Part shown: positions 32,213 to 46,140 of the stretch, one piece after another
Layout of the letters: the number at the start of each line of letters is the position of its first letter
How positions within the stretch are numbered: position 1 is the first letter of the stretch
Source: a virus
DNA: 64,000 nucleotides
Virus record (IMG/VR): IMGVR_UViG_3300044981_000350
Span: 1-64,000 of that record
Strand: one strand, 5' to 3'
Program-made: the position numbers and the translations under genes
Notes under the pieces: generated by a model
The model's input: only the letters and a program-made list of their open reading frames with translations
Database searches by the model: none
What the model was told of the DNA's origin: nothing

Positions 32213-32328
32213 CTTGGTGCGATCTCGCCGAAATCGCCCTTTCGTTCGCGTCGGCGCCGGTTACGATGATGGCCCTCGCCTGCCTGGAGTGGTGGATCGA
32301 ACGCAGCCGACCCGTGTGATAGGCTTCG

Positions 32329-33639
32329 GTGGTGGTGACGCCCCATTGGCCGTCGTATCAAGGCACGGCCCGACGGGGCCTCGGGCTCGACGTGGGATCG
32401 CTCACGACGGTCGCCAGCAGCGCGGGCGCTGCGGCCAACGCCGGAGACGTCTTCAACCCGGATGATCCAACGCAGGATCTACCGGGGCAGGCTACGGCTC
32501 AGTTCAACTCGTTGGTGAATTCGGCCCAGCCCGCGGTAGCTCTACAGCAACAGCTTCAAAGCGCGATCGGCTCCGCCACCGGCCAAGCCCAAGCGGCTTT
32601 CCAAGGGTATGCGGGCGAGATCCAGGCCATCGAGAGCTACCCCGGGGCGGCGGAGGCGGCCGAAGGGATGATCACGGCCGCCGGTGGTGGTGTGCCGACG
32701 GACGCTCAGCTCCAAGGGGCCTTCACCGTCGCGGCAACCGCCGGTGCCGTGGCCCTCGGTGCGACCGCGACGGCCGCGGCGACTATCGTGGCGCCCCTCT
32801 GCGCGGTCGTATGGGGAGCCGGGTACGCGATTGGGGCCCTCGTCCAAAACATCCTCGGGATCACGAGCGGTAGCCCTGCACCATGCTCCGGCGGCGACAC
32901 CGCGGTGTACGGAACATCTCCCGGAGATCCGAACTGGCAAACGTACATGGGGTTATCGGGCCCAGAGCTCGGCGCACCGTGGGGCCCCTACGCACCCCAG
33001 CAAGCAGCGAACATCCAAACGTTGAAGAGCCTCGCCGGTAACCCGACGTACGGCGCCCCTGCGAACTGGCCCTATTGGACCCCGTACACGCGAGGGGCCT
33101 TCGAGAACTGGGCCGGCGGGATCATCATCCACGCCGAAGAGCTTTGGATGAATTGCAAGAAGGTGCCGCCGGACAACACGGCGACCACGCTCTTGAAGGG
33201 TCTCGTAGGGGCGTGGAACGCGCAGTACCCCAATGCGCCGAAGCGTCAGATCAACATCGCCGGCCTGGGGCCGACACCATTGGATGGCCAGATCAAGACG
33301 CTGAGCAACACGTCGTTTCCAACAAGTTTTCGGCCCCCGCTCTATTGGCAATGGATGGCATGGCAGGGCGATCCCATTCAGTACCTCTTGACCCAGGTCT
33401 CGAATGAGCAAGGGGGGAATATCGCGATCACCGTCGCCGACCCACCCCTGACGCCCCCCGCGGCCTCGGCCCCTACTACTTCCGCGGGTACCGCCGTCGC
33501 CAACGTCGCGGCCGGTACCGCCGTCGTCGGCGGGGCGGCACTCACCGGGACCGCAGTGTATGCTTTTGCCAAGGGTCAAGCCGTCAGCACCGTCCTCAAG
33601 TCGGGCTTGCTCGCGATCAAGGGATGGTTCATTCGATGA
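32329..33639 (+). CDS. Putative virion membrane protein (GLG leader, C-terminal hydrophobic anchor)
   Basis: RRGLG at aa 15-19; internal and C-terminal hydrophobic helices. Confidence 0.65.
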   Translation: MVVTPHWPSYQGTARRGLGLDVGSLTTVASSAGAAANAGDVFNPDDPTQDLPGQATAQFNSLVNSAQPAVALQQQLQSAIGSATGQAQAAFQGYAGEIQAIESYPGAAEAAEGMITAAGGGVPTDAQLQGAFTVAATAGAVALGATATAAATIVAPLCAVVWGAGYAIGALVQNILGITSGSPAPCSGGDTAVYGTSPGDPNWQTYMGLSGPELGAPWGPYAPQQAANIQTLKSLAGNPTYGAPANWPYWTPYTRGAFENWAGGIIIHAEELWMNCKKVPPDNTATTLLKGLVGAWNAQYPNAPKRQINIAGLGPTPLDGQIKTLSNTSFPTSFRPPLYWQWMAWQGDPIQYLLTQVSNEQGGNIAITVADPPLTPPAASAPTTSAGTAVANVAAGTAVVGGAALTGTAVYAFAKGQAVSTVLKSGLLAIKGWFIR

Positions 33640-34079
33640 AACGCCGCCGCAGAGCTCGCGCGAACCCGACGGGGGCCCAATGGCTCCTCATCTCGGGTGC
33701 AATCGGCGCCGTCGGTGTGCTGGGCTACCTCGTCTACAAGGCGAACGCCCCCGCTGCATCGCTCCCCTCCGGTGCCGGCTCGACCTACAACGTTCAGCTC
33801 TCTTCGGGTTCTCTCCCGACCATCACGATGTCGCTCTCGAAGGGCGACCAGATGAGCCTCACGCCCCCCGCGGGCGGTACCCTCCCCACCGTGACCTTCA
33901 GCCCCACGAACATCGTCGGCCCCAACCCCAACGGGGCCTACCTTGCCTACTCACCGATCGCGGTCGGTAGTACGACGTGCACGGTCAACTACACCGACAC
34001 GACCGATACAACCAGCACGACGAGCACCGCCACCGGCAACACCGAAACCGCAACCTTCACCGTGAACGTGACAGCTTGA
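33636..34079 (+). CDS. NP-leader membrane protein with small beta ectodomain
   Basis: MKRRRRARANP then TM (WLLISGAIGAVGVLGYLVY). Confidence 0.75.
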   Translation: MKRRRRARANPTGAQWLLISGAIGAVGVLGYLVYKANAPAASLPSGAGSTYNVQLSSGSLPTITMSLSKGDQMSLTPPAGGTLPTVTFSPTNIVGPNPNGAYLAYSPIAVGSTTCTVNYTDTTDTTSTTSTATGNTETATFTVNVTA

Positions 34080-34279
34080 TGGCTCGGCGTCGCGCGCGGG
34101 CGAACCCCGGAGTGGATGTGTGGCTCGCGCTTGGCGCAGGCGTCGCCTTGCTCGGTGCCGGCATCTACTTCTTCACCAGACCGGCAGCCACCACAAGCAC
34201 TACCGGCACCGGCGCACTTCCCCCAAGCACCCACCGCGCGGCCATCCCGATGGTCTACACCGCCCGCCTCACTTCCTGA
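34079..34279 (+). CDS. NP-leader membrane protein
   Basis: MARRRARANP then TM; TGATG overlap. Confidence 0.7.
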   Translation: MARRRARANPGVDVWLALGAGVALLGAGIYFFTRPAATTSTTGTGALPPSTHRAAIPMVYTARLTS

Positions 34280-34291
34280 TCGGAAACCCCC

Positions 34292-34738
34292 ATGGCCCGT
34301 CGACGCAAGCGCACCCGTAAGACTGAAGTTCGAGAGAACGGCCCCGAGCTCCTCTGGATTCTCGCTGGGTTGGGCGTTCTCGGCGCTGGCACCGTGGTCT
34401 ACCTCGCAACGCGGCCCCCGGCGACGACGACTCCCTCGTCGGCCGCGGTGCAGGCGGCGACGCAAGCGCGCCTCAACGCGATCGAGTCGAACATCGCTGA
34501 TCTGGCCAATGAAGGAATCCCGGCGCCGGTGAGTGATACGATCCCGAACAACGTCGCCACGGCTCTTTCGAACGGTGGCGGTAGTACGGGCCCCGTGAAC
34601 ACCGGGAACGCCGACGTCGACAACGCTGCGAACAGCGCGATCAATAACGCTACGGGCCAAGCTACCGACGCGGTGAATAACGCGACGAGCAGCGCCGGCA
34701 ACGCGGTGAACAGCGCGGCCTCTCAGCTCGGATTCTGA
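34292..34738 (+). CDS. NP-variant leader membrane protein
   Basis: MARRRKRTRKTEVRENGP then TM; N/A/T-rich tail. Confidence 0.7.
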   Translation: MARRRKRTRKTEVRENGPELLWILAGLGVLGAGTVVYLATRPPATTTPSSAAVQAATQARLNAIESNIADLANEGIPAPVSDTIPNNVATALSNGGGSTGPVNTGNADVDNAANSAINNATGQATDAVNNATSSAGNAVNSAASQLGF

Positions 34739-34747
34739 TCTTTTCCG

Positions 34748-35359
34748 ATGGCGCGCGCTCGTGAAAACCCCATTGAGCTGGCCGTGTGGCTCATCGCTGC
34801 CCTCGCGGCCGCAGCGACAGGTACGGTTGTCTACGTAGCTGCGAAGAAGAGCGCATCGAACGCCGCGGCCACTGCGGCGACAACGGCCGCGAACAATGCG
34901 GTGCTCATCGGCCCCGCCATCACGAACCCCGAGGCCGGCGGCGCGGGAAACTCTGTCGCCGAAGCGGCCAACGCCGCCTTTGTGGCCGATCAGCAAGCCG
35001 CCGCCGCGGCCGCCGCCGCCAACGCCGCCCACCTCGCGACGTTGACCGACACGACCTACCAGCTTTCATTGAGCGGGCAGGCCCCCTCAGCGACCGCCAG
35101 CTTTCTCCTCAAGGTCGGCGACACGATCCAGATCACGCCGAGTATGGCCGGGGACCCGCCCGTGGCTCGGGTGTGGACCTACAGCCCCGTGAGCTCTAGC
35201 AGCATCATCCAAGAGTTGGGCTCGGCCGATGGGGTGAGCGCCACCTTCAAAGCGACCGCCCCGGGCTCGGGGGTTCTCCTCGTGCAGAACGTCATGGCTG
35301 GCAACCAGAATGTCGTCTACATGACCTACACCGTCAACGTCGAGGTCATCGCAACGTAG
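34748..35359 (+). CDS. NP-leader membrane protein with Ig-like C-terminal domain
   Basis: MARARENP then TM; LKVGDTI...FKATAPGSG...YTVNVEV. Confidence 0.75.
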   Translation: MARARENPIELAVWLIAALAAAATGTVVYVAAKKSASNAAATAATTAANNAVLIGPAITNPEAGGAGNSVAEAANAAFVADQQAAAAAAAANAAHLATLTDTTYQLSLSGQAPSATASFLLKVGDTIQITPSMAGDPPVARVWTYSPVSSSSIIQELGSADGVSATFKATAPGSGVLLVQNVMAGNQNVVYMTYTVNVEVIAT

Positions 35360-35435
35360 GGGCGAACATAGGGTATTGGAGGCATGGGCGGGGGCAGCCT
35401 TAGCCAATTCTGCCCCGCCGCAGTAAACTCCCTCT

Positions 35436-35705
35436 ATGGACGTCAAGTCGGGCGCTCTGGTCGGTTTCGTGACGGCCCTCGGGGGTGTCGCCGGCCTCGT
35501 GTTCGGATACACGGCTGCGTCGCTGGTCGACGCCAAGAAGCCCGGTGAGGTCGCGGTAGGGTTCGGGGTGATCGGCGGCCTGGTGGCCTCCTTCGCGGCC
35601 GGCACCATCATCGCACCGGACGCAACTACGACGACCAGCACGACCACAACGACCCCCACCCCGGCGGTGGGCTCTTCCGGGATTCCGGCGCAACTCAGCC
35701 GATAA
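35436..35705 (+). CDS. Small two-TM protein with Thr-rich tail
   Basis: Two Gly-rich hydrophobic helices. Confidence 0.6.
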   Translation: MDVKSGALVGFVTALGGVAGLVFGYTAASLVDAKKPGEVAVGFGVIGGLVASFAAGTIIAPDATTTTSTTTTTPTPAVGSSGIPAQLSR

Positions 35706-35716
35706 AGGGCCCGGCC

Positions 35717-36931
35717 GTGGCCGACTTCAACCCCGCACTTCCCGCGACGGCGACCCGGCGGCCCTACCCCGATGGGGCCCCGGGCATTCGCATGTCCCTT
35801 GAGGCCATGGCGCAGAAGATGCGCGAGGGTCGGTTGGACCCCGGCGTGCGGGGATGGGCGATTCAGGCGTTGAAGGATGCGGGGATCGACGGGCGTGGAA
35901 ACACGACGGTGCGCGCGCAGGCTTCGGCGCTCTTGGATGCATTGCGGGCGGTCACGACATACGCACCAGATCCCTACGGGGCCGAGTATATCCCTAGCGC
36001 CGCCGCCACGTTGTGCCTCAAGCCAAACCTCTGCGTCAACGGCGAAGACTGCGACGGGTTGAGCGTTGCACTCGGAAGCCTGATGCTGTCGATTGGGATC
36101 CCGACCCAGATCGTCAAGCAGACCTTCGGGGGCGGCGCCCAAGAGCACGTCCTCATCGCGATCTACGACGGGACCGATTGGCTTTACGCTGATCCGTCGA
36201 CGCGGTTGCCGCTCGGGGGCGCCGTGAGTGCAGCGCGCGAAGATTGGATCGATCCGATGGGTGCGGTGGGCCCTCTGCCGGAGGCGCAACCCGAGATCAT
36301 CACCCTCGGAAAACCGCGCGGCCTCGGGAGCGTTCTCGGGTACCCGACGACTTCCGACGCGCACCAACTCCTCGACACGGCGATCTACAACGCCGGCCAG
36401 CTGAAGACCGCGTGGGATAACTGCAACAGCTGCACAGGCGCTTCGTCGACCACGTGCGGATGGCCTGACCCGGGTACGACTAACATTTCCGCAACCGGCC
36501 CCGGCGCCGATGCGTGGGCTGCGTGGCAAGCCGACTGCGGCAGTATGATCAACGACCTCAATACGCTCGTCGCGCAATGGAACGCGCAGAGCGCGACGGC
36601 TGCGCACTGGATGGATTCGTGGAGCTACGACCCGCTTTTTTGGGATCAGATCCGCGGTATCATCGAGCGTCAGATCGATCTCGATCAGCGCTTCCGAAAC
36701 AGCGGCACTAACTGCGCGCTCCCGACTTACCCGAATGAGCCGCAGCCGATCGCTACGAACGACCCCGACCAGTGGGTTTACCAGGATGCGAACAGCGCGA
36801 TCAAAGGGGTCGAGAGCGTTGCGGCCAATGCGGTGAAGCCGGTGTCGATCGCGATCGGCGGCATCGCAGTCGGCTTGATGCTCGCCGCCGGCGGTTACTT
36901 CCTTCTTGATCGACTCATCCCCCGGCGATGA
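35717..36931 (+). CDS. Transglutaminase-like cysteine enzyme (candidate maturation protease), C-terminal TM
   Basis: EDCDG...SLMLSIGIP (Cys), EHVL (His), WLYADPS (Asp); RGLG after the catalytic domain. Confidence 0.8.
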   Translation: MADFNPALPATATRRPYPDGAPGIRMSLEAMAQKMREGRLDPGVRGWAIQALKDAGIDGRGNTTVRAQASALLDALRAVTTYAPDPYGAEYIPSAAATLCLKPNLCVNGEDCDGLSVALGSLMLSIGIPTQIVKQTFGGGAQEHVLIAIYDGTDWLYADPSTRLPLGGAVSAAREDWIDPMGAVGPLPEAQPEIITLGKPRGLGSVLGYPTTSDAHQLLDTAIYNAGQLKTAWDNCNSCTGASSTTCGWPDPGTTNISATGPGADAWAAWQADCGSMINDLNTLVAQWNAQSATAAHWMDSWSYDPLFWDQIRGIIERQIDLDQRFRNSGTNCALPTYPNEPQPIATNDPDQWVYQDANSAIKGVESVAANAVKPVSIAIGGIAVGLMLAAGGYFLLDRLIPRR

Positions 36932-37581
36932 CCATGGGCTTGGTCGCTCCCGGTTCCTCCACGGCGTCGACCATCGCCCAATATTTTTTCTGGGGCGTCG
37001 TCGCCGCGGGGCTCGGCACCATCGGCTACTACATCTTCGCGCCGATCCCTCACGAGCGGGATAACCCTCGGCTCGGATCCGGCGGCCCGCGCGGTGGCTC
37101 GAAGAAACGCAAGCTGCCGATCGTGAAGGGCCGGAGCTGTCGGTTTGAAATGAAGGAAGGCCCCGATGTCACGTGCGCGGGGGCGATGCTCCACGACCCA
37201 ACGGGCAAGGCATGGCCGGCGCGTTCCGTTTTGTGCGGGCCCATTCGGCGCAAACTTCGGAAGGCATCCGATGCGGAGCTCGAGGGGGCGGGCCGCCACT
37301 ACTTCGGCGGGAGTTATCCCGCGCGCGTCGTTGAAATCGATGCGCCCAACCGCAGCATGGAAGGTTGGCGGTACCTCGGCGAGGTTGAGCGGATCTACTA
37401 CACGCGCGTGGGTCGAAAAAACGGCAATGTGCGGTTCCAACATCCCTTCAACAAACCGAGCGCGCTCGCGACGGTGATGAAGGGCCGGGGCAGGGTGCGG
37501 CTATACCGTAAGGGCCGCTTCGTTCGGTTGGAGCTCCCGCGGGGTAGCATTCTTGACAGTAGAGGCTATGTTTGGCCCTGA
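36928..37581 (+). CDS. Putative virion protein: N-terminal TM, DNP motif, basic domain
   Basis: FFWGVVAAGLGTIGYYIF, HERDNP, LGEVERIYY...FQHPF. Confidence 0.65.
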   Translation: MTMGLVAPGSSTASTIAQYFFWGVVAAGLGTIGYYIFAPIPHERDNPRLGSGGPRGGSKKRKLPIVKGRSCRFEMKEGPDVTCAGAMLHDPTGKAWPARSVLCGPIRRKLRKASDAELEGAGRHYFGGSYPARVVEIDAPNRSMEGWRYLGEVERIYYTRVGRKNGNVRFQHPFNKPSALATVMKGRGRVRLYRKGRFVRLELPRGSILDSRGYVWP

Positions 37582-37814
37582 TGACAAATAATCGGTCTCT
37601 CATCGTGGAATACAAAGGCGGCCTTGATGTGAGCATCGACCGGGCGGTGGAGAAGGGCGCCCGAAAAGAACGGGACGGCTCGGGGTTTTCGTTCCTCGAT
37701 GGAACTCGGGATCTCTCGTTCTCATTCACGCAGGGCCGTTTCGCCGAGGCTGCGAAGGCTCGAATCAAAGCCATGCTTGGGCGAAAGGTCACCACCCGCA
37801 TTGTCTCTCACTGA
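37581..37814 (+). CDS. Small hypothetical protein
   Basis: TGATG overlap; GSGFSFLDGTRDLSF. Confidence 0.5.
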   Translation: MTNNRSLIVEYKGGLDVSIDRAVEKGARKERDGSGFSFLDGTRDLSFSFTQGRFAEAAKARIKAMLGRKVTTRIVSH

Positions 37815-37858
37815 AGCTGCCGAGCGCGCCCTTGCCAAATTTGATAGGCTGATGGAGC

Positions 37859-39361
37859 GTGGGCGATTACCTCGACAAGCTTGGCGCAAATCGGGCCGAC
37901 GGACTAGAGCACGCCGCAACCGCCAAGTCGCACCGTAAGCTGCGCCGCAAGGGTACCTCCTTGACGACCACCCCGAAGCGCGCGAAACTCAGAGTCAAGC
38001 GAGTCGCTACGAAACCACCCGGGAAGGAAACGAGGGGCACCACCAAAAAGACTCCGTCGGAGAAAGCGAAGATGGCCAAGAAGAGCAAGCGCTCGAAGAA
38101 GCGTCGTTCGGCAGCGCAGCAAGCCGCGACGCGGAAGATGCTTCGCGCCGCCAAGGCAAAGCGAGCCGGGAAAAGCCGCCGCGGCTCTTCGAAGCGAAAG
38201 GCCCGTAAGAGCGGCAAGCGCAAGAGCGCGAAGCGAGTCGCCGCGGGCAAAAAGGCCGCGCGGACCCGCAAGCGCCGCGCGTCCGTTGGAGCCTCCGAGC
38301 CGACGCGCAGCAAGCGGAAGAGCGGCAAACGTAGGGCCCGAAAGGTTCGTGCGGCTCACTCGATCAAGCTTCCCCGCGGCAAGCGCGGTGCAAAAAAGCG
38401 CGTCGGCGTCCACGTAAAAGTGGGCAAGAAACGCCGCTCGCGTGGATTCTCAGTTCCGCGGAAGACGAAGCGCGTCTACGTGATCGCAGCCGAGAAGAGC
38501 CGCCGACGTCGGAAGCGCAAGGCAAAGGCCAACCCGGCCAAGCGCCGCCGTCACTCGAGCGGTCGACGCAAGGGCGCGATGGAAAACCCGATGGACGGGG
38601 TGGAGCTCTTCATCGGAGCCATCACCGGCCTCGCGGGCTTCCTGACCGCCGACGTGCTCGACCGTTTCCTCGCGACTCACCCCCTAACGGTCTCTACGGC
38701 CGCCTCCGGGTCGACCGCAGCGACGTATACCGATACGCCCCCGACGTCGGGCGACTACCAAGGCCTCTTCAATGCGACCGCGATCTGCGCCCCGATGGAC
38801 GCAACGCGGTGGCTCGCCGGCCTCGGTGTCGCAACCGTTCCGCTCGTCATCGCGCACTTCATCTCGGCCCCCAAGGGCCGAGCGGCGCTCCAGTTCTTCG
38901 GCTACGCGGCCGGGATCCGGGTCGTCGGCAAGGGCGTGATCGACATGATCGCGCAGCTCACGCAGCCGACGCAGCTCGGCCAGCAGCTGTACGACGGTGA
39001 GATGCGCGCCGCGGCCCTCAAGGCCGGCAACGGCACGATCGCCTCTGGCGTGAACCTCCCGAGCTCCGGCTTGGGTCGTGCCCGCCTCGGCACGGGCAAG
39101 CCCTGCGCCCCTTGCGCCACGAAGAAGATGGGCGCCGGTTACCCCAGCGCTCCCCGCGAAGTGACCGCGGTGACGAACAACAGCACCCCGACCACGCAGA
39201 ACCAGCCCACGTCGACCCCGACGAATACGGCCCCCACGGCCTCGGCCCCGGCGGCCACCCCGCCGGCGCCTCCCGCGGCCGCGAACACCCTCACGGGCGC
39301 GCGCTTCATCAACGGGCTTCCTCGACGAAACCCGAATTGGGGTTATCAAGGAGACGAGTAA
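37859..39361 (+). CDS. Protamine/histone-H1-like basic protein fused to a membrane domain (candidate core protein)
   Basis: About 240 aa dominated by K/R/S/A, then KANP...AMENP, hydrophobic helices and SSGLG; start uncertain. Confidence 0.75.
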   Translation: MGDYLDKLGANRADGLEHAATAKSHRKLRRKGTSLTTTPKRAKLRVKRVATKPPGKETRGTTKKTPSEKAKMAKKSKRSKKRRSAAQQAATRKMLRAAKAKRAGKSRRGSSKRKARKSGKRKSAKRVAAGKKAARTRKRRASVGASEPTRSKRKSGKRRARKVRAAHSIKLPRGKRGAKKRVGVHVKVGKKRRSRGFSVPRKTKRVYVIAAEKSRRRRKRKAKANPAKRRRHSSGRRKGAMENPMDGVELFIGAITGLAGFLTADVLDRFLATHPLTVSTAASGSTAATYTDTPPTSGDYQGLFNATAICAPMDATRWLAGLGVATVPLVIAHFISAPKGRAALQFFGYAAGIRVVGKGVIDMIAQLTQPTQLGQQLYDGEMRAAALKAGNGTIASGVNLPSSGLGRARLGTGKPCAPCATKKMGAGYPSAPREVTAVTNNSTPTTQNQPTSTPTNTAPTASAPAATPPAPPAAANTLTGARFINGLPRRNPNWGYQGDE

Positions 39362-39466
39362 CAGACGACGAGTGGCGGCGTTTTCCCGGGGAACGGAAAA
39401 CAGAGTGTCTTTGACCGTTGGGTGGCGCCTTTGGGGCACCCGACAACACCAGGTTGGAGACAGATC

Positions 39467-40798
39467 ATGGCCTATCAATCGCGAATCGTGAATCAGCCGA
39501 AGAGCAAGACGCTCGTTCGGCCCCGTCCCGCAGACCGCTACGTCGTGGGCGCCTCCGGCGTTCCCAATGAGGCGAAGATCAAGGCAGGCCTCGGCTCGGC
39601 CGGTCTCGGCTCGATCCTCGACATCATGAAGGCGTCTAGCGAGACGCCGGTGTGGAGCATGGACGTCATCGAGCAGGTCCGCTGGACGATGACCGGCCCG
39701 CAGACCGACGCGTCGGTTCAAGCGAACTTCGGCGCGGAGATCGACCTCTTCGGCTCCGGCAAGTCGCCGCAAGGCATTGACTTCGTCGAGACGACGATGG
39801 CGCAGACGGGCCAGACGCAGACGCACTTCGTCGCCTGCTACATCGGCTTCCACATGGAGCCGGAACCCCTCTGCTTTACGGCGCGCGGCAACGCGTCGAC
39901 GCACCCCACGAGCGCGGTGGCTCAGCCCCCGTCCCCGGACGTCTTCACGCAGAACGACCGCGCCAACGGCGCCCTCGGCACGGCCGTCGCGGCCGGCACC
40001 CAGACGTTCCTCCCGGCGGTCTACCGCCACGGCTGGTGGGCGAACTACGTTTGCTGGCACATGGCCCGCGCGTACAACCTCCGGTGGAAAATCGGCCAGC
40101 ACGTCAACATCATGGACGAGCAGTTGCGCCACACGGCGTACATGCCGCCCAGCGCGCAAGAGGGCTCGGCCTCCAACTCGCAGGTCGATGTGACCACGTT
40201 CGTCGCGAACCTCAACCAGCGCTACGACTCGCTCGGGTCCGCGCTCGACTTCATCCCGTCGAACTTCATCCGCATCGGTAGCGACGCGGTCGGCGGCGTG
40301 AACGTCGGTTTCTTCATGCCCTCGCGTGACTTCGAGATCGTCGATGCCACCTACGGCGGCATGGACCTCCGGAGCATGCTCAAGGGCAACAGCGAGATGC
40401 GGAAGCTCTGCGTCCCGTACGTCATCGCCCCGGGCGTGCCCATCGGCCTCTTCCTCCAGGAGTGCGACACAGTTCAGGGCGACACGATGCGCCAGTTCCT
40501 CTCCATCACGCAAGGCCTCGGCGGCGCAATCCCGCCCTCTCTGACGCCGGACGAGAACTACATCGCGGAGCCGACCGCCACGGGCACCAACGTCATGTTG
40601 GAGCGCACGCTGAGCGGCACGAACGTCGCGCAGCAAGTCGACGCCGAGCGCGTCGTCTTCCAGGGCGGCGATCTGAAGCTCACGCTTCCGATCCGCGGCT
40701 TCGAAGTGAGCGCCGACTGGTACAACCAGCTCTCTTCGTCCGCCGACATCCGCGCCGCGGTCTTCGACTGCGTCGGGATGCGCTTCGCGGCTCAGTGA
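39467..40798 (+). CDS. Candidate major capsid protein (fold unknown)
   Basis: GGAGA RBS; strongly C/G-ending codons; soluble 443 aa; central in the virion module; AGLGSAGLG leader. Confidence 0.55.
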   Translation: MAYQSRIVNQPKSKTLVRPRPADRYVVGASGVPNEAKIKAGLGSAGLGSILDIMKASSETPVWSMDVIEQVRWTMTGPQTDASVQANFGAEIDLFGSGKSPQGIDFVETTMAQTGQTQTHFVACYIGFHMEPEPLCFTARGNASTHPTSAVAQPPSPDVFTQNDRANGALGTAVAAGTQTFLPAVYRHGWWANYVCWHMARAYNLRWKIGQHVNIMDEQLRHTAYMPPSAQEGSASNSQVDVTTFVANLNQRYDSLGSALDFIPSNFIRIGSDAVGGVNVGFFMPSRDFEIVDATYGGMDLRSMLKGNSEMRKLCVPYVIAPGVPIGLFLQECDTVQGDTMRQFLSITQGLGGAIPPSLTPDENYIAEPTATGTNVMLERTLSGTNVAQQVDAERVVFQGGDLKLTLPIRGFEVSADWYNQLSSSADIRAAVFDCVGMRFAAQ

Positions 40799-40832
40799 CA
40801 ACGGGGGTAGCTCCCCATAAGGAGACCCTCCG

Positions 40833-41588
40833 ATGAGCAATATCGTCGCATTCAGCGAGGAGCAGTTCAAAGCGCTCATCGCTCAGATCCGAACCCCCCA
40901 TAGCAGCGGGTTGGGCGCGCCTCCGGGCAAGCCCTCTCGAGCCTTGGGGTTCGGATGCGGCGACAGCGACTTCGGCCCGCTCGCCACCGGCATCTACTCG
41001 ATGCTGGCGGCGGGCTCGCCGCGTCTCGCTCTCGCCAAGGCGCGCGGCGTTCCGCTCGCCCCCTACATCATCAACGTGCGGGCGATCTTCCCGGACACGT
41101 CCACCACGTTGGTCCCCGACGTCGGCAGCGACGTGAAAATTACGCAGGATACGCTCATCGACTCGCTCATCATCCGGATCCAAAACGAGTCGGACACGGC
41201 GAACCAGAACCAGTTTCAGTCGCTCTCTGACTTCTTCTACGGGTACCAGAGTGCGATCGAAGCGACCCTCGATGTGCAGGGCGCGCCTCGCTATACGGTC
41301 ACCGGCGATAAGTTCGTTCCCCTCAGCGTGCTGGGCGATCCGAACAACGGCGTCGGGCACTGGCCCGGCGGGTGGGTGCTCACGTATCAGCAACAGCTCT
41401 TCATGAGCTTCCAGGCGAAGGTGCTCCTTCCCTACGCGCCGATCGAAGTGATCTGCTCGTTCCGCGGTTGGGTGCCGGTCACCCAAGCTTTCGTCAGCAT
41501 GACGAACCGCGAGGCGATCACGCTCCTTCAATCGGAGTTCGGCATTCAACTGGACGATTCGTACATCAATCGAGTCGTTGCCCTCTGA
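40833..41588 (+). CDS. Candidate second capsid/penton protein
   Basis: TAAGGAG RBS; beta-rich; SSGLG at aa 24-28. Confidence 0.5.
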   Translation: MSNIVAFSEEQFKALIAQIRTPHSSGLGAPPGKPSRALGFGCGDSDFGPLATGIYSMLAAGSPRLALAKARGVPLAPYIINVRAIFPDTSTTLVPDVGSDVKITQDTLIDSLIIRIQNESDTANQNQFQSLSDFFYGYQSAIEATLDVQGAPRYTVTGDKFVPLSVLGDPNNGVGHWPGGWVLTYQQQLFMSFQAKVLLPYAPIEVICSFRGWVPVTQAFVSMTNREAITLLQSEFGIQLDDSYINRVVAL

Positions 41589-41600
41589 CCCTAAGCCCCG

Positions 41601-42410
41601 ATGGGTCGCATCGTCGAAATTGCTTCGAGTGGGCTCGATGAATACCTCCAAGGCGTCGGCGGCGACCCTTGGGGGGGTTCATCTGCGCTCGGCTTGCGCG
41701 TTCCCTTTCTTGCGACGCCCGACAAGAACAACCGCTACCTCTTTCTCCTCGCGAGCTTCACGATCGGCGAGGGCGCGTCGGTAGTTATCAAGGGCTACCG
41801 ACAATACGCATCCCTCGGGATCGCGCTCAGCGCAACGCGGTTCATCGAGCAAGAAATCACGAGCCCTGCGTTTCGACTCCCCGACGGGAACATCAGCTGG
41901 GCGATCCGAGGGTTGGGCCCGCCGAACGCCGGCGGCTACCCAAAGCAGGGCCCTACCCCCGACGATCTGCGTTCGTTCAAGAAGAACTGGGCCGACGGCA
42001 GCTGCCTTCTCTATAACGACTACACGATCGCGGCGGGCAACCAGATTTACACGCAGCTCGAGTCCTACGTGGCGCCGAACCTCGGTCGACCGTGGGGCAC
42101 CGCGCTCCCCGCCGGGCAGCAAGGCAACTTCACCGACCTACGCACGCCGTGGAAATCGAGCCGCGCGTGGGCGAGCCTCGATGTTCACGTCGATGGACCC
42201 ACCACCATCGCGTTTTTCGCCAGCGTGCGGCAAAGCGCCGGCACCTACGCGGCGGCCGCCCCATCGGCGAGCTTCTCCGGGATGAACACCCCCGAGGAAG
42301 CTTTCATGGCGAACTTCACGACGGGCGGCGATGCGCCCACGAAGCCAATCTACTGGCGCGTCGGGGGAAGTCTCATCGTGGAAGTGCAGAAAGGATTCAC
42401 GGGTCCATGA
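41601..42410 (+). CDS. Putative virion structural protein
   Basis: Soluble beta-rich ORF following the capsid candidates. Confidence 0.55.
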   Translation: MGRIVEIASSGLDEYLQGVGGDPWGGSSALGLRVPFLATPDKNNRYLFLLASFTIGEGASVVIKGYRQYASLGIALSATRFIEQEITSPAFRLPDGNISWAIRGLGPPNAGGYPKQGPTPDDLRSFKKNWADGSCLLYNDYTIAAGNQIYTQLESYVAPNLGRPWGTALPAGQQGNFTDLRTPWKSSRAWASLDVHVDGPTTIAFFASVRQSAGTYAAAAPSASFSGMNTPEEAFMANFTTGGDAPTKPIYWRVGGSLIVEVQKGFTGP

Positions 42411-42784
42411 AACGCCGCAAACGTCGTTCCTCAGAGACGATCGTCGTCTACCAGAAGAACCCGAAAATCTCCCCGTGGGTGTGGGTCCTCGGCGGGGCGG
42501 CTCTTCTCGGCGGCGGGTACCTCACCTACTGCTATTTCAAGACGCACTTCACGGTCGCGGCGAGCATGGCCTACGGGGTGCCGGCCGGCGCAGCGATTAC
42601 CCTCACTGCCCCCGCGGGCGCCACATGGACCGGGCTCACGGCCAGCGATGGGAGTCAAGTGCAAGTCGCGGTCGGGCAGACGACCCCCCTCACGTTTACC
42701 GCGAGCGCCACGACGGGCGTGACGTATACCGTCGCGTGGACCCTCAACAACGTGCCGGCGACGGCCACCATCACCACGCAGTAA
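42407..42784 (+). CDS. NP-leader membrane protein with small beta domain
   Basis: MKRRKRRSSETIVVYQKNP then TM; LTAPAGATWTGLT. Confidence 0.75.
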   Translation: MKRRKRRSSETIVVYQKNPKISPWVWVLGGAALLGGGYLTYCYFKTHFTVAASMAYGVPAGAAITLTAPAGATWTGLTASDGSQVQVAVGQTTPLTFTASATTGVTYTVAWTLNNVPATATITTQ

Positions 42785-42788
42785 ACCC

Positions 42789-43190
42789 ATGGCTCGTCGA
42801 AACCCAGACCTGTCCACCCTCTGGTGGGCCCTCAGCGCCGCATCCCTCGCAGGCACCGTCGGCTACTACGTCGGCAAGGGCGTCAACCCGCTCAACCCGG
42901 CGTCGAACGTCACAACGAATATCGCCCTGACGAATGGCGGTTCCCTCACGGCGCCGGCCGGCGGTACCTGGATCCTGACCCTCCCGAGCGGCGCGACGTG
43001 GACGAACCTGACGGACACGAACAACGACATCACCTCGCCGCCCACGGGTACCGGCCCCGCTACGATTACCACCCCGGTTTCGGGTGTGACCTACACTGCA
43101 ACGTGGAGCACGACCCCCACGACAGTGACCACCGGTCGAAACAATCGAAACAACCAGAATACGCAGACCGCCACGATCACGGCGCAATAA
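42789..43190 (+). CDS. NP-leader membrane protein, paralogue of its neighbours
   Basis: MARRNP then TM; LTLPSGATWTNLT. Confidence 0.75.
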   Translation: MARRNPDLSTLWWALSAASLAGTVGYYVGKGVNPLNPASNVTTNIALTNGGSLTAPAGGTWILTLPSGATWTNLTDTNNDITSPPTGTGPATITTPVSGVTYTATWSTTPTTVTTGRNNRNNQNTQTATITAQ

Positions 43191-43199
43191 GGGAATCCC

Positions 43200-43592
43200 A
43201 TGGCTCGACGAAAATCCCTTGCCCGCCGATCCCGATCGAGGGAAAACCCCGGCATCCCCCTCTGGATCTGGCTCGCCGGCGGGGCCCTCGCGGCGGGCGG
43301 CGTCGGCTACCTCATCTACACGAACACCGTGAACAGCCCGGCGCCGGCCCCGGGAGCTACGGCGGCCCCCGGGACGTCGAACATCACATTGGGTACGACC
43401 CCCGTCACCGTCCCCGGAGGCTTCGTTACCGTGAGTCTACCCGTCAACGCCACGTGGGTTTCCCTCACCGGCGGCGGGGCCACGGCGGGATCTTCTGACC
43501 AGGTGACTATCAACCTCCCCAGCGGAAGCACCGCGACGGCCGTTTGGAACAACGGAACGGCCCAACAGACCACCACCATTACCGCTTCGTAG
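43200..43592 (+). CDS. NP-leader membrane protein, paralogue of its neighbours
   Basis: MARRKSLARRSRSRENP then TM; VSLPVNATWVSLT. Confidence 0.75.
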   Translation: MARRKSLARRSRSRENPGIPLWIWLAGGALAAGGVGYLIYTNTVNSPAPAPGATAAPGTSNITLGTTPVTVPGGFVTVSLPVNATWVSLTGGGATAGSSDQVTINLPSGSTATAVWNNGTAQQTTTITAS

Positions 43593-43629
43593 CCCCGCGT
43601 AGTATCATAGTCCTAGGAGATCAACCCCC

Positions 43630-43842
43630 ATGCGCCGTCGTGCTCGTCGAAACCCCACCCTTCCCACCTGGGCCCTCGTCCTCGGGGGAGCCGCCGTCGT
43701 CGGCGCCGTGGGTTACGCCATCTACACCAAGCAGCAAGCCACGACGCAGATCGCTGGCGCTGCCAACGCACTCGCCCCCGCGTCCACCACGACCACGTCG
43801 TCTACGACCACGACGACGCCGGCCGCCACTTCGTCGTCGTAA
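43630..43842 (+). CDS. NP-leader membrane protein with Thr-rich tail
   Basis: AGGAGA RBS; MRRRARRNP then TM. Confidence 0.75.
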   Translation: MRRRARRNPTLPTWALVLGGAAVVGAVGYAIYTKQQATTQIAGAANALAPASTTTTSSTTTTTPAATSSS

Positions 43843-43851
43843 ACCCCGCCG

Positions 43852-44394
43852 ATGGGAATGTGGGATCAGGCGAGCGATTGCGAGACCTGCGGCGGCGGCC
43901 TCCGCGCCTGGGGCCATCTCGCGCCGCCCAATCCTACTGTTTCCCTAGATGAGGTGAGTCCGATGGATGTTGGAAATCGATGGGGCATTTTGACGGGTGC
44001 CGGGGCCGCACCGGATCGGCTCCGGCGCGTGCCGCGGGTCTTCGCGGGGCTCGGTGACGACAGCTCCGACGATAACCCGCCCGTCGACACCGACACTACG
44101 AGCGGGAGCATCGACAGCAGCGACAACTCCGACGCTGCGGTCAACCCGACGATTTCACCGGTCACCGCCAACCCCGGCGAGACCATCTCCGCCAGCCCGA
44201 CGCCGACTGCGGTTTCAAACGCGAATGGCGGCGGCTCGACATCAAGCGGCGGTGGCGGTTCCCCGAGTGTCTCCTCAAGTACCCCCGCGAGCACGAACTA
44301 CACCCCGTGGATCATCGGGGGCGCGGTCGTCGGCGGGGCCGGCCTCCTCGGGTTCGCGCTCTGGCGGCGGCACCACAAGCTGCATCGGCGATGA
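43852..44394 (+). CDS. GLG-leader protein, S/T/D-rich, C-terminal TM and basic tail
   Basis: FAGLGDD; [29 protein letters not shown]. Confidence 0.7.
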   Translation: MGMWDQASDCETCGGGLRAWGHLAPPNPTVSLDEVSPMDVGNRWGILTGAGAAPDRLRRVPRVFAGLGDDSSDDNPPVDTDTTSGSIDSSDNSDAAVNPTISPVTANPGETISASPTPTAVSNANGGGSTSSGGGGSPSVSSSTPASTNYTPWIIGGAVVGGAGLLGFALWRRHHKLHRR

Positions 44395-44819
44395 AGCTCC
44401 TCGGCGCCGGTAATCGTGGCGCCGGGCTTGGGGATGCCTCGATCCTTCCGGCGGATCCACTCACCCAAGCGACTGCGGATCTTGTGGCGTGGCTCGTGGC
44501 GAGTCCGTGCACGCAAAACGCCGTCACGCAGGTAAGCGATTTCCAAACGGCGTGGAACACTTCGACGCTCGGCGGAACGCTCACCGTCGACGGTAAATAC
44601 GGGCCCCAAACACGCGGCGCGCTCCAAGCGGCGATGAACGCGGCGGGGACGGGGAGCGCCCCCGCAGATTGCTTCACGTCCGCGAGTGCGGTGTGCCCTC
44701 AGGCTGCGGCCGCTGCGTCATTCGCACCCTGGATCATCGGCACCGCCGTGGTCGCTGGCGCTGGTGTTATTGCGTACACTTATTGGCAGCTCCACCACGC
44801 TCGCGGCGGCCGCCGCTGA
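44391..44819 (+). CDS. GLG-leader peptidoglycan-binding-domain protein with C-terminal TM
   Basis: GAGLGD; VSDFQTAWN...[15 protein letters not shown] (PG_binding_1 pattern); [13 protein letters not shown]. Confidence 0.75.
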
Positions 44820-44829
44820 GGATCCCCCG

Positions 44830-45507
44830 ATGCCCATTCCCTACACCCAACCGGGTTACTCGTACAGCCCCGTCGCAGCCGTTTCGCTCGGCCAAGTGGG
44901 GGCTACGGGATCGCACGGGGCGAGCGGGCCGACAGGCCCCGCGGGGGCCACTGGAGCCACCGGACCGACGGGCACTACCGGCGGAGCGGGAGCGACGGGA
45001 GCTACCGGGAGCGGAGCTACGGGAGCCACTGGAGCCGCCGGCGCGACAGGCCCCGGTGGTGGAGCCACGGGAGCTACCGGCGCAGGTGGTGCGGCCGGCG
45101 CTACGGGCGCCACCGGAGCGGCCAATACCGGCCATCATGCCTACAGCCAAAACGCGTCGGCGGTGAGTGCCTCTACGACGCCGACGTTCACGAGCGGGTC
45201 CTACACCTCGACTTCGGGGACGATCCTCATCATCGCTACCATGACGGCTACGGGGCTTGGCGCGACGTTGGCGGCAAACGACGCCGTTGTCTTCAACCTC
45301 CTCCAAGACGGATCGATCATCGGAACTTCCCCGAGCATGAGCGTTGGCGCTGCGGGCCCCGGCCCGGTCGACGCGTCGGGCGCCCTCTCGATGATCCTCG
45401 CCGCCTCCGGAGCCCACACCTACGCGATCCAAGCGACGGTTTTGACCGGGAGCCACACCGCCACCGTTCAAATCGGCCAGGCCGCCATTTCCATCACCGA
45501 CCTCTGA
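44830..45507 (+). CDS. Short collagen-like fibre protein
   Basis: MPIPYTQPG leader, GXT run, beta-rich C-terminal domain. Confidence 0.75.
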
Positions 45508-45531
45508 TTTTTTCCCTCCGAGAGAACCGCC

Positions 45532-46137: not shown

Positions 46138-46140
46138 CCT

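What the first reader, a model, noticed from the sequence alone, without database searches (positions are those of the whole stretch)
37859..39361. Protamine-like DNA-condensing region fused to a membrane domain, directly upstream of the capsid candidate
Seen: about 240 aa of K/R/S/A runs (KKSKRSKKRRS, RRRRKRKAK) with very few acidic residues, then two NP motifs, 2-3 hydrophobic helices, GLG, a CxxC, a T/P-rich tail and a final RRNP. It is the one protein where both tags flank the membrane domain. Known: adenovirus pVII and similar basic core proteins condense genomes and are proteolytically matured, whereas motor-packaged tailed phages generally lack them. Inference: the genome is condensed on a membrane and co-assembled, which could explain the missing packaging motor.
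Basis: partly seen in the sequence, partly recalled or inferred. Interest (0 to 1): 0.72.

Follow-up and report, generated by a model that had tools for sequence, protein, structure and literature searches.

The report
Membrane-anchored polycation of a tailless phage
This gene encodes a conserved protein with a 240-residue, strongly positively charged arm joined to a small hydrophobic helical domain, and it most likely binds the DNA of an uncultured bacterial virus that has no recognisable DNA-packaging motor.

Summary
ORF 37859-39361 (+) encodes 500 aa. Residues 1-240 carry 98 K/R against 8 D/E, by far the most charged stretch in this complete 73.4-kb virus record. Next come a near-invariant A-M-E-N-P junction, two hydrophobic helices, an amphipathic helix, GLG, CxxC, a T/P-rich linker and a WG-acidic tail.

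The basic arm is translated. Relatives start with the same M-x-D-Y motif, and the frame stays open in all six syntenic relatives. A profile of the C-domain finds 381 clusters. In 76 full-length members the arm keeps a net charge of +51 to +124 while K/R varies 18-fold, so charge rather than sequence is conserved.

The C-domain folds confidently (pLDDT >90) but matches no known fold. Its helices are only marginally hydrophobic.

No terminase, portal, FtsK or A32-type ATPase was detected here, and no terminase or FtsK in five complete relatives. The capsid candidate gives only weak jelly-roll matches.

Best reading (about 0.5): a membrane-anchored, genome-neutralising core protein. DNA binding, virion location, cleavage and motor-free packaging are untested.

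This scan has reported the same virus group on other DNA three times.

The parts
37859..39361 (+). Whole gene: 500-aa basic-arm/helical-domain protein (GTG start; stop at 39359-39361)
   Evidence: the ORF, GC3 0.81, and an in-frame TGA at 37850-37852 just upstream
37859..37927 (+). Conserved N-terminal motif, aa 1-23 (M-G-D-Y-L-D-K-L...E-H-A-A-T-A-K). It is the only acidic part of the arm and fixes the true start.
   Evidence: D3, Y4 and A20 are invariant in 7 syntenic proteins. 69 of 151 long public gene calls carry [DE][YF] in the first 30 residues, and others carry N-Y. AF2 predicts helix 4-13.
37928..38578 (+). Polycationic arm, aa 24-240 (aa 1-240 together: 98 K/R, 8 D/E)
   Evidence: AF2 pLDDT is mostly below 55, so the arm is predicted disordered.
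38111..38170 (+). Confident helix in the arm, aa 85-104 (AAQQAATRKMLRAAKAKRAG). The same motif is repeated several times in distant relatives.
   Evidence: pLDDT 86-91. Repeats such as KQKAAALKNLKKARSA occur in P0080, P0087, P0089 and P0056. The strict motif occurs once or more in 42 of 212 family sequences.
38219..38278 (+). Conserved block RKSAKRVAAGKKAARTRKRR, aa 121-140
   Evidence: Nearly identical in the window, L003, L005, L006 and L007 despite 34-45% overall identity
38567..38596 (+). Junction R-K-G-A-M-E-N-P-M-D, aa 237-246: the conserved 'ENP tag'
   Evidence: N243 and P244 are invariant in 7 proteins; N243 is at least 90% conserved in 92. In the 164 of 195 members with N[PA] 15-35 aa upstream of DRxxA[ST]: A 125, M 115, E 137, P 153.
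38597..38674 (+). Helix 1, aa 247-272. Hydrophobic core 250-266 with a small-xxx-small G253/G257/G260 pattern and D268-R269 at its end.
   Evidence: AF2 pLDDT >90; Kyte-Doolittle 1.59; D268 and R269 invariant in 92 sequences
38675..38800 (+). Conserved loop with a beta-hairpin, aa 273-314
   Evidence: AF2 strands 277-280 and 289-291, pLDDT >90. T273, H274, D292, N305, T307, P312 and M313 are at least 90% conserved.
38801..38869 (+). Helix 2, aa 315-337, the most hydrophobic segment (R317 invariant, W318 at least 90% conserved, at its start)
   Evidence: Kyte-Doolittle 1.89; recalled Hessa-type sum +3.5 kcal/mol; AF2 helix 315-332
38870..38959 (+). Amphipathic helix 3, aa 338-367, carrying conserved R341, R354, G357, K358 and D362
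   Evidence: Recalled Hessa-type sum +8.3 kcal/mol, so it is unlikely to span a membrane on its own.
39068..39115 (+). GLG (aa 404-406) and CxxC (aa 416-419) motifs in a low-confidence stretch
   Evidence: G406 is invariant; G404, L405, C416 and C419 are at least 90% conserved. GLG is present in 86 of 92 and CxxC in 85 of 92.
39167..39286 (+). T/P/A-rich linker, aa 437-476
   Evidence: pLDDT 44-52
39314..39358 (+). C-terminal tail GLPRRNPNWGYQGDE, aa 486-500. The conserved element is W-G followed by acidic residues.
   Evidence: W494 and G495 are at least 90% conserved. WG occurs in 76 of 92; NPx(1-3)W in only 22 of 92.
39422..40798 (+). Capsid candidate directly downstream (context, probable start M16 at 39467)
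   Evidence: The highest GC3 among the genes compared, 0.90. AF2 pLDDT 80. Only weak jelly-roll matches: HCIV-1 Z 5.2, PR772 P3 Z 4.5, SPV1 Z 4.3-4.4. No HK97-fold entry is listed.
36928..37581 (+). Upstream conserved 217-aa protein: one TM helix, a basic stretch and a conserved C-end (context)
   Evidence: a homologous C-end is present upstream of the target in all 6 relatives
33624..35359 (+). Three small proteins with the same design: short Arg-rich N-tail, (E/A)N(P/G), then one TM helix (33624-34079, 34292-34738, 34748-35359)
42789..43592 (+). Two more small proteins of that design (42789-43190 begins MARRNP...; 43200-43592 begins MARRKSLARRSRSRENP...)
   Evidence: The same design occurs in L003 and L004.

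Best explanation
The gene encodes a structural core protein of an uncultured virus with a genome of about 73 kb. This virus group shows only jelly-roll-type capsid matches and no recognisable packaging motor.

**Proposed mechanism.**
1. A helical hairpin (helices 247-272 and 315-337) anchors the protein in a virus membrane.
2. The 240-residue arm (net +90) and the C-terminal part lie on the same face of that membrane.
3. The arm binds the viral dsDNA electrostatically, without sequence specificity. It neutralises and compacts the DNA against that membrane face.
4. The short Arg-rich N-tails of at least five small membrane proteins of the same module assist.
5. A few hundred to about 1,600 copies would neutralise a quarter to all of the 146,878 phosphates.
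6. The near-invariant A-M-E-N-P junction is either a processing site that frees the polycation or a recognition or sorting signal shared with the small proteins.

**Shown:** the gene, its translation frame and start, its conservation, the conserved charge, the confident fold of the C-domain, and the lack of detectable motor genes.

**Inferred:** membrane insertion, DNA binding, virion location, copy number, cleavage, and any role in motor-free packaging.
For: **Real, translated gene.**
- GC3 is 0.81.
- A syntenic orthologue of 507-559 aa lies directly upstream of the capsid candidate in 6 of 6 related viral contigs.
- The N-terminal M-x-D-Y...AAT motif is conserved.

**Large family.** 92 clusters were found by the word-based search. 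A C-domain profile found 381 clusters at E<=1e-3, of which 127 are at <=1e-30.

**The fusion is the rule.** Of the 150 best hits, 107 have an N-extension of at least 40 aa. Of those, 103 have K+R of at least 25% (median 38%). One 'MENP-start' entry is an exact truncation of a full basic ORF.

**Charge, not sequence, is conserved.**
- Net charge is +90 to +105 in 7 syntenic proteins at 34-45% identity.
- Across 76 full-length members the median is +85 and the range +51 to +124, while K/R runs from 0.29 to 5.27.

**Unique polycation of the genome.** Its best 100-aa window is +46, against +18 for the next ORF.

**C-domain.** pLDDT is above 90 over residues 245-400. Charges around the two hydrophobic helices follow the positive-inside pattern. 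Its structural neighbours are transmembrane helices of transporters (best Z 6.9, rmsd 1.8 over 72 residues). That is weak and generic.

**Context.**
- At least five small proteins with an Arg-tail, NP and a TM helix sit in the same operon.
- No terminase, portal, FtsK or A32 was found by ORF scans or six-frame searches.
- A strict Walker A motif in a real ORF occurs only in the Dda helicase.
- No Terminase_6N or FtsK is found in five complete relatives.

**Precedents.**
- SPV1 has a shell, a membrane and a VP1-DNA core (PMC8459092, whole text). It lacks a packaging ATPase (PMC8812541, passages).
- Adenovirus core proteins make up about 50% of core mass (PMC10081844, passages).
Against: - There is no experimental or proteomic evidence that the protein is in virions or binds DNA.
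- The two helices are only marginally hydrophobic. On a scale recalled from memory they score +5.4 and +3.5 kcal/mol, against -0.15 to +2.1 for eight of the nine other hydrophobic helices scored in the module (the ninth, 42789-43190, scores +4.25). They also carry conserved charges (E249, D265, D268, R269). The domain could therefore be a soluble or peripheral bundle.
- Fold searches gave nothing significant: Foldseek PDB 0 at E<=1e-3, BFVD 0, VIA best Z 6.9, below the stated noise level for helical models.
- Under the positive-inside rule the arm faces the cytoplasm. In a PRD1-like assembly (recalled) that side faces the capsid, not the DNA.
- The capsid candidate's jelly-roll matches are weak (Z<=5.2). 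An internal membrane is inferred only from the many TM proteins.
- Condensing proteins do not make a motor dispensable in adenovirus. A divergent motor could have escaped the profiles used.
- Full neutralisation would need about 1,630 copies, or 87 MDa of protein for 48 MDa of DNA (arithmetic). Neutralisation would probably be partial.
Confidence: 0.5

Rival explanations
1. Genome-delivery (pilot or ejection) protein. The helical domain inserts into or remodels the host membrane at entry. The polycationic arm stays on the DNA and escorts it into the cell. Condensation would be a by-product.
For: The hairpin is marginally hydrophobic and carries conserved charges, which is typical of proteins that switch between soluble and membrane states. 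The gene sits in the structural operon. One weak structural neighbour is a cyanophage pre-ejectosome chain (9k2v_E, Z 4.5), which is not significant.
Against: An escort needs few copies and no fixed amount of charge. The arm's large net charge, retained across the family while K/R varies 18-fold, fits bulk neutralisation better. No ejection-protein family matched in Pfam or PHROGs.
Confidence: 0.15
2. Soluble nucleoprotein with no membrane involved. The confident helical domain is an oligomerisation core from which the basic arms radiate, forming beads on the DNA as adenovirus pVII or SPV1 VP1 do.
For: Hydrophobicity is marginal and conserved charged residues lie within the helices. No significant match to any membrane-protein fold was found.
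Against: The basic-tail/NP/hydrophobic-helix design is identical to at least five clear single-pass membrane proteins of the same operon. A GxxxGxxG pattern, an R-W interfacial pair and a positive-inside charge distribution are present. The top structural neighbours are all transmembrane helices.
Confidence: 0.15
3. Non-virion role during infection. The protein would tether replicating viral DNA to the host membrane for replication or partition, or compact the host nucleoid for takeover.
For: A membrane anchor plus a non-specific DNA-binding arm would also suit tethering. No evidence places the protein in virions.
Against: The gene always lies inside the structural operon immediately upstream of the capsid candidate (6 of 6 relatives). 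It is co-oriented with that operon, and no promoter-like site was found in 29000-47000. The replication genes lie elsewhere.
Confidence: 0.1
4. Internal or scaffold protein of an ordinary tailed phage whose HK97 capsid, portal and terminase are too divergent to detect.
For: Collagen-repeat proteins hit PHROG 'tail fibre' families. The gene just upstream of a major capsid gene is often the scaffold (general knowledge). Several large structural-module proteins remain unassigned.
Against: The capsid candidate model (pLDDT 80, pTM 0.78) gives only beta-sandwich and jelly-roll neighbours. No HK97-fold entry appears in three searches. There are no terminase or portal hits at E<=1 in six frames, and no Terminase_6N in five complete relatives. 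The unassigned module proteins carry no P-loop.
Confidence: 0.05
5. The basic region is not translated, and the true start is at M241 (MENP) or later.
For: The window's own public gene call starts at M72 (P0001). Many public calls start at MENP (43 of the 150 listed have a short extension or none). M at position -2 of the junction is common (115 of 164).
Against: The N-terminal motif is conserved at the protein level, and the frame stays open through in-frame indels in 7 of 7 loci. GC3 is 0.66-0.84 along the arm. P0218, which starts at MENP, is an exact truncation of the 559-aa L005 ORF. No consistent ribosome-binding motif lies upstream of the internal ATG in 4 relatives.
Confidence: 0.03

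Closest known systems
Portogloboviridae (Sulfolobus polyhedral virus 1): VP1-DNA nucleoprotein core inside a membrane inside a jelly-roll shell
   Same: The virus lacks a packaging ATPase (PMC8812541, passages). It has a protein shell, a membrane with many membrane proteins, and DNA bound by a basic protein (PMC8459092, whole text). The capsid candidate here gives weak matches to SPV1 chains (Z 4.3-4.4).
   Different: SPV1 VP1 is a small five-helix protein with about 22% R+K+N that wraps A-form DNA (PMC12273771, passages). Here the arm is 240 aa, 41% K+R, predicted mostly disordered, and covalently joined to a hydrophobic helical domain. No sequence or fold relation was found. The SPV1 genome is 20 kb and archaeal; this one is 73 kb with bacterial-type phage replication genes.
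Adenovirus core proteins pVII, V and mu
   Same: These are abundant, positively charged virion proteins that condense dsDNA and make up about half of the core mass. VII and mu are cleaved at maturation (PMC10081844, passages). The K/R/A-rich composition is similar (recalled).
   Different: There is no Pfam match at E<=1 and no adenain-type site at the junction (consensus recalled). Adenovirus proteins have no membrane anchor. Adenovirus has a packaging machinery, and VII is not required for packaging.
Protamine-like proteins of Baculoviridae (P6.9) and Asfarviridae
   Same: They are proposed to condense DNA through a polycationic sequence (PMC3281028, passages).
   Different: Those proteins are small and arginine-dominated (says 'small arginine rich'). 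Here K is about equal to R, the region is 240 aa, and it is one domain of a 500-aa protein.
Basic DNA-binding virion proteins of chloroviruses (PBCV-1)
   Same: PBCV-1 is an icosahedral virus with an internal membrane whose DNA is thought to be neutralised by packaged basic proteins (PMC3281028, passages).
   Different: These are eukaryotic giant-virus proteins, unrelated in sequence and not membrane-anchored polycations.
Arginine-rich inner arms of capsid proteins (hepatitis B core C-terminal domain; ssRNA virus N-terminal arms)
   Same: In both, a disordered polycationic arm is tethered to the container wall and its net charge is the conserved quantity (concept recalled, not from a call). 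Here net charge is retained while K/R varies 18-fold.
   Different: Those arms are 10-40 residues long, sit on the capsid protein itself, and bind single-stranded nucleic acid.

Membership tests
Protamine / P6.9-type protamine-like proteins | Small protein dominated by arginine | tested here: not met
   The arm is 240 aa within a 500-aa protein. R is 19.6% and K 20.4%. K/R runs from 0.29 to 5.27 across 76 relatives.
Protamine / P6.9-type protamine-like proteins | Match to a curated family profile | tested here: not met
   No Pfam family at E<=1 for residues 1-244 or for six relatives. No Pfam or PHROG family at E<=0.01 for the whole protein.
Adenovirus core protein pVII | Sequence-profile match | tested here: not met
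   No Pfam match at E<=1. No PDB sequence match at E<=1.
Adenovirus core protein pVII | Cleavage by the viral protease at (M/I/L)xGG-x or (M/I/L)xGx-G (consensus recalled) | tested here: not met
   No type-1 site was found. The only type-2 match (LAGLG at 319) lies inside helix 2, not at the junction. Whether another protease cuts at A-M-E-N-P cannot be tested here.
Adenovirus core protein pVII | Abundant DNA-bound component of the virion core | not testable with these tools
   This needs virion proteomics or cryo-ET.
Portogloboviridae VP1-type nucleocapsid protein | Small five-helix protein that wraps DNA (PMC12273771, passages) | tested here: not met
   AF2 predicts only two helices (4-13 and 85-104) in the 240-aa arm. 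The rest has pLDDT below 55.
Portogloboviridae-like virion plan | No genome-packaging ATPase | tested here: met
   No match at E<=1 for FtsK, Terminase_6N, TerL_ATPase, Phage_portal or Pox_A32 in six frames. No Terminase_6N or FtsK in 5 complete relatives. A strict Walker A motif in a real ORF occurs only in the Dda helicase. Profile-level absence only.
Portogloboviridae-like virion plan | Single jelly-roll capsid proteins related to VP4/VP10 | tested here: inconclusive
   Capsid-candidate model against 6oj0: Z 4.4 (rmsd 5.0, 148 aligned) and Z 4.3. Both are below the stated noise level. The neighbouring 251-aa and 269-aa proteins were not folded.
Integral membrane helical-hairpin protein | Two helices hydrophobic enough to span a bilayer | tested here: inconclusive
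   Kyte-Doolittle scores are 1.59 and 1.89. Recalled Hessa-type sums are +5.4 and +3.5 kcal/mol, against -0.15 to +2.1 for eight of the nine other hydrophobic helices scored in the module. No dedicated topology predictor was available.
Integral membrane helical-hairpin protein | Positive-inside charge distribution | tested here: met
   About +90 lies before helix 1. The loop 267-316 carries more D than K/R. K339 and R341 follow helix 2.

The most novel reading that the evidence does not exclude
A widespread group of 70-80-kb bacterial viruses packages dsDNA without any ATP-driven motor. The genome is neutralised and collapsed onto a membrane by a dedicated membrane-anchored polycation (net about +85 to +105 per copy) plus the Arg-rich tails of small membrane proteins. 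A jelly-roll shell then closes around this nucleoprotein-lipid core. That would be a chromatin-like, co-assembly mode of encapsidation so far known only from much smaller archaeal viruses.
Probability: 0.35. Interest if true: 0.85.

Novelty: new variant of a known kind. Interest (0 to 1): 0.66.

Why it matters
The textbook view is that phage DNA is neutralised by cations and polyamines, with no evidence that basic proteins contribute much (PMC3281028, passage). The same view holds that large dsDNA phage genomes are pumped in by a motor.

This protein challenges both points. It belongs to at least 381 sequence clusters, it sits beside the capsid gene, and its conserved property is about +85 net charge on a tethered arm. 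The complete 70-78-kb genomes examined show no recognisable motor.

It therefore gives a concrete, testable handle on whether protein-mediated genome condensation and co-assembly exist in bacterial viruses. The basic arm and the C-domain can each be expressed and assayed on their own.

Five literature searches found no description of this protein family or virus group. Those searches cover only the held open-access library.

Tried and rejected
**Searches that found nothing.**
- tblastn of the target and of the capsid candidate against 50,697 phage records gave no match.
- Pfam and PHROGs gave no family for the target, its halves or six distant relatives.
- PDB sequence searches with the C-domain profile, the basic arm and the capsid profile gave nothing better than E 0.5.
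- Fold searches of the target model: Foldseek PDB 0 at E<=1e-3, BFVD 0. VIA wide gave a best Z of 6.9 to transporter TM helices, below the stated noise level for helical models.
- ESM Atlas returned only unnamed clusters at 0.85-0.86 for the capsid candidate and for the C-domain.
- The genome-contig scan with the capsid alignment returned two short MAG contigs (4.4 and 2.3 kb) and no host inference.
- The promoter/terminator scan of 29000-47000 and the tandem-repeat scan of the gene found nothing notable.

**Steps that could not be run.**
Source names and accessions of NCBI-held relatives were therefore not seen.
- The two primary SPV1 papers (PMC5469268, PMC6842630) are not held. SPV1 facts come from the ICTV profile and from passages in other papers.
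- Complex prediction (two copies of the C-domain) was never accepted because the queue was full. No result exists.
- No supplements were consulted.

**Ideas rejected.**
- An adenain-type cleavage site at the junction: none is present.
- A conserved ribosome-binding site before M241: none is consistent across relatives.
- The apparent 178-aa basic extension on an L003 small protein is a spurious upstream ORF, because GC3 is 0.50-0.60 before the true start.
- The arm as a capsid-size ruler: its length varies from 175 to 375 aa among relatives.
- Net charge against genome size: only six complete genomes were available (+90 to +105 for 69.6-78.4 kb). That is too few to test.
Full report
**1. What is in the sequence**

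The window is bases 1-64000 of a 73,439-bp virus record that CheckV rates 100% complete.

ORF 37859-39361 (+) encodes 500 aa. It starts with GTG directly after an in-frame TGA at 37850-37852. GC at the three codon positions is 0.61/0.60/0.81. GC3 stays at 0.66-0.96 in every 150-nt window of the ORF, matching neighbouring genes at 0.73-0.90.

Residues 1-240 contain 98 K/R and 8 D/E, a net +90, and the whole protein has pI 11.9. Among the 62 retained ORFs of at least 100 aa, the best 100-aa window of this protein has net charge +46. The next best ORF reaches +18.

After the arm come these features:
- the junction R-K-G-A-M-E-N-P
- helix 247-272
- a loop with a small beta-hairpin
- helix 315-332
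- an amphipathic helix, 338-367
- short helices up to residue 389
- GLG at 404-406
- CAPC at 416-419
- a T/P/A-rich linker
- the tail RRNPNWGYQGDE

**2. Is the arm translated?**

A scan of viral contigs with the downstream capsid candidate returned 6 loci. In all 6, a 507-559-aa ORF with 23-26% K+R lies immediately upstream of the capsid homologue.

The seven proteins align at 34-45% identity. D3, Y4 and A20 are invariant, and the relatives start M-x-(x)-D-Y with ATG. The GTG at 37859 is thus the orthologous start.

The window's own public gene call (P0001, 429 aa) starts at M72, and many public calls start at 'MENP'. One such entry, P0218, is letter for letter the C-terminal 284 aa of the 559-aa L005 ORF. 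At least that case is a gene-caller truncation.

No consistent ribosome-binding motif precedes the internal ATG in four relatives. I conclude that the arm is translated.

**3. The family**

A word-based search with residues 238-440 found 92 clusters at E<=1e-3 among 7,999 candidates scored. None has a Pfam domain. All are named hypothetical by their source or left unnamed, except one 'colicin import membrane protein'. Contigs reach 95 kb.

A profile of nine C-domains, searched against 1.84 billion representatives, found 381 proteins at E<=1e-3 and 127 at <=1e-30. Only the best 150 are listed, and I analysed those:
- 107 have an N-extension of at least 40 aa.
- 103 of those 107 have K+R of at least 25% (median 38%; extension length 40-374 aa, median 191).
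- 43 have a short extension or none, and many of these begin exactly at MENP.

**4. What is conserved in the arm**

The sequence of the arm is poorly conserved and full of in-frame indels. Two elements stand out:
- a block, RKSAKRVAAG(K/R)KAARTRKRR
- an AAxxxxKxLxxA helix, which AF2 predicts with pLDDT 86-91 at residues 85-104 and which distant relatives repeat several times

Net charge is retained. It is +90, +95, +97, +104, +105, +99 and +99 in the seven syntenic proteins, while K/R ranges from about 1.0 to 0.4.

I then restricted the 214 family sequences held to the 76 that carry both the N-terminal motif and the junction. In these the arm is 175-375 aa (median 238). Its net charge is +51 to +124 (median +85, quartiles 70 and 97). 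K/R ranges from 0.29 to 5.27.

Conservation of charge with free exchange of K and R is what is expected of non-specific electrostatic binding to a polyanion.

**5. The junction and the 'tags'**

In 164 of 195 family sequences an N-[PA] lies 15-35 residues before the invariant D-R of helix 1. The other 31 lack it or begin there. The logo around it is R-R-G-A(125)-M(115)-E(137)-N(164)-P(153)-L/M-T/S-G, with counts out of 164.

The same design recurs in five small proteins of the operon: 33624, 34292, 34748, 42789 and 43200. It consists of a short Arg-rich N-tail, then (E/A/R)-N-(P/G), then one hydrophobic helix. Relatives L003 and L004 have it too. The target is thus the extreme member of a design class.

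The C-terminal 'RRNP' is not a second copy of this tag. Among 92 aligned members, NPx(1-3)W occurs in 22 and WG in 76.

Whether ENP is a cleavage site, a sorting signal or a helix cap cannot be decided here. No adenain-type consensus (recalled) lies at the junction.

**6. The C-domain**

With a 92-sequence alignment, AF2 gives pLDDT above 90 for residues 245-400 and below 55 for most of the arm.

No fold search was significant:
- Foldseek against the PDB: 0 at E<=1e-3
- Foldseek against BFVD: 0 at E<=1e-3
- VIA-align: best Z 6.9 (rmsd 1.8, 72 aligned) to transmembrane helices of EfpA, followed by other transporters

The tool's own note puts Z below about 13 within noise for helical models.

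Kyte-Doolittle scores are 1.59 and 1.89. On a Hessa-type scale recalled from memory, the two helices sum to +5.4 and +3.5 kcal/mol. Eight of the nine other hydrophobic helices scored in the module give -0.15 to +2.1; the ninth (42789-43190) gives +4.25.

The charge pattern follows the positive-inside rule, and a GxxxGxxG pattern and an R-W pair are conserved. A two-helix membrane hairpin with both termini on the same side is the most likely reading. A soluble or switchable bundle is not excluded.

**7. Context**

Pfam and PHROG scans of 80 and 57 ORFs identify:
- replication genes (PolA fused to UDG, a VapE-type primase-helicase, Dda and SNF2 helicases, Sak4)
- an integrase
- GroES
- a GH25 lysozyme
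- collagen-repeat fibre proteins

They find no terminase, portal or HK97 capsid.

Six-frame searches of the genome for FtsK_SpoIIIE, Terminase_6N, TerL_ATPase, Phage_portal and Pox_A32 gave 0 matches at E<=1. Five relatives of 69.6-78.4 kb, all rated 100% complete and four with terminal repeats, also gave 0 of 5 for Terminase_6N and 0 of 5 for FtsK.

A strict Walker A motif in a credible ORF occurs only in the Dda helicase. The unassigned structural proteins have no P-loop.

The capsid candidate (model pLDDT 80, pTM 0.78) gives only weak matches, all of them beta-sandwiches:
- HPV L1 at E 1e-3 and STIV at E 1.6e-2
- HCIV-1 at Z 5.2, SPV1 at Z 4.4, P23-77 VP16 at Z 4.2 and PRD1 P3 at Z 4.0
- PR772 P3 at Z 4.5 and SPV1 at Z 4.3

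No HK97-fold entry is listed in any of the three outputs. This fits a jelly-roll shell but does not prove one.

Earlier notes of this scan (e1-6066267, e1-6066278, e1-5952130) reached the same reading for relatives on other DNA. They pointed me to Portogloboviridae, and I tested that lead only partly.

**8. Mechanism**

- *Shown:* a conserved, translated protein with a tethered arm of about +90 net charge, in the structural operon of genomes that lack detectable motors.
- *Inferred:* the hairpin sits in a virus membrane. The arm and the Arg-tails of the small proteins line one face and bind the genome. The genome is thereby neutralised and compacted as the particle forms.

The genome carries 146,878 phosphates. 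Full neutralisation would need about 1,630 copies and half neutralisation about 820. In adenovirus, core proteins make up about half of the core mass, with 500-800 copies of VII (PMC10081844, passages). The same ratio here would be roughly 900 copies, or about 56% neutralisation (my arithmetic).

**9. Weak points**

- The cytoplasmic face of a host-derived membrane patch becomes the outer face in PRD1-type assembly (recalled). That would put the arm on the wrong side, unless the membrane wraps the nucleoprotein or forms as open sheets.
- Adenovirus VII is not required for packaging. Condensation alone therefore does not explain a missing motor.
- SPV1 shows that a motor-less plan of shell, membrane and nucleoprotein exists (PMC8459092, whole text; PMC8812541, passages). 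Its VP1 is a small five-helix protein unlike this arm (PMC12273771, passages).

**10. Verdict**

This is a new variant of the known kind 'viral genome-condensing core protein'. It is fused to a hydrophobic anchor and occurs in a large bacterial virus. No description was found in five literature searches of the held library.

Noticed in passing
window 35717-36931 (+): A 404-aa protein two genes upstream. It has a weak Transglut_core hit (E 0.0065, below the cut-off), C/H/D-like motifs and a C-terminal TM helix at 378-396. It is a candidate virion-associated cysteine protease or transglutaminase, and so a candidate for any processing at the ENP junction.
   Followed up: no
window 33624-35359 and 42789-43592 (+): Five small proteins share one design: a short Arg-rich N-tail, then (E/A/R)N(P/G), one TM helix, and an S/T-rich ectodomain that looks beta-rich from its sequence. 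The same design occurs in relatives (L003 near 11200; L004 minus strand near 16314).
   Followed up: partly
window 36928-37581 (+): A 217-aa protein with an N-terminal TM helix, a basic stretch and a C-end RLYxxGxxxRLELPxxxxxDxRGxVxP. That C-end is conserved upstream of the target in all six relatives. No family match was found.
   Followed up: no
window 37572-37814 (+); L003 5786-6307; L002 6012-6401: A variable slot lies between the 217-aa gene and the target. It holds an 80-aa ORF here, a 173-aa ORF that looks like an HNH/NUMOD-type homing endonuclease by eye in L003, and a 129-aa membrane ORF in L002.
   Followed up: no
window 30635-32212 and 32329-33639 (+): Two large unassigned structural-module proteins. 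One is acidic and P/Q-rich with low complexity (525 aa). The other is A/G-rich with hydrophobic segments (436 aa). Neither has a P-loop or a family match.
   Followed up: partly
window 14199-14720 (+): A 173-aa protein with weak zinc-metallopeptidase matches (Peptidase_M10 E 4.5e-5, Reprolysin-like), lying outside the structural module.
   Followed up: no
window 18296-20902 (+): A family-A DNA polymerase fused to an N-terminal uracil-DNA-glycosylase-superfamily domain and a 3'-5' exonuclease domain.
   Followed up: no
window 49624-50782 (+) and 54863-55981 (-): A KGG-repeat (stress-protein motif) protein, a GroES homologue and a tyrosine integrase. The virus is probably temperate and brings its own co-chaperonin.
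   Followed up: no
window 5-2191, 3774-5609, 44686-45507, 46141-46785 (+): Several collagen-repeat proteins hit PHROG 'tail fibre' families. In a tailless virus these would be vertex fibres.
   Followed up: no
L009, L010 (genome contigs): The only hits to the capsid candidate in 185,579 species genomes are two short contigs (4.4 and 2.3 kb). They are binned into a Chloroflexota MAG and a Polyangiaceae MAG. They are too short to show integration or to name a host.
   Followed up: no
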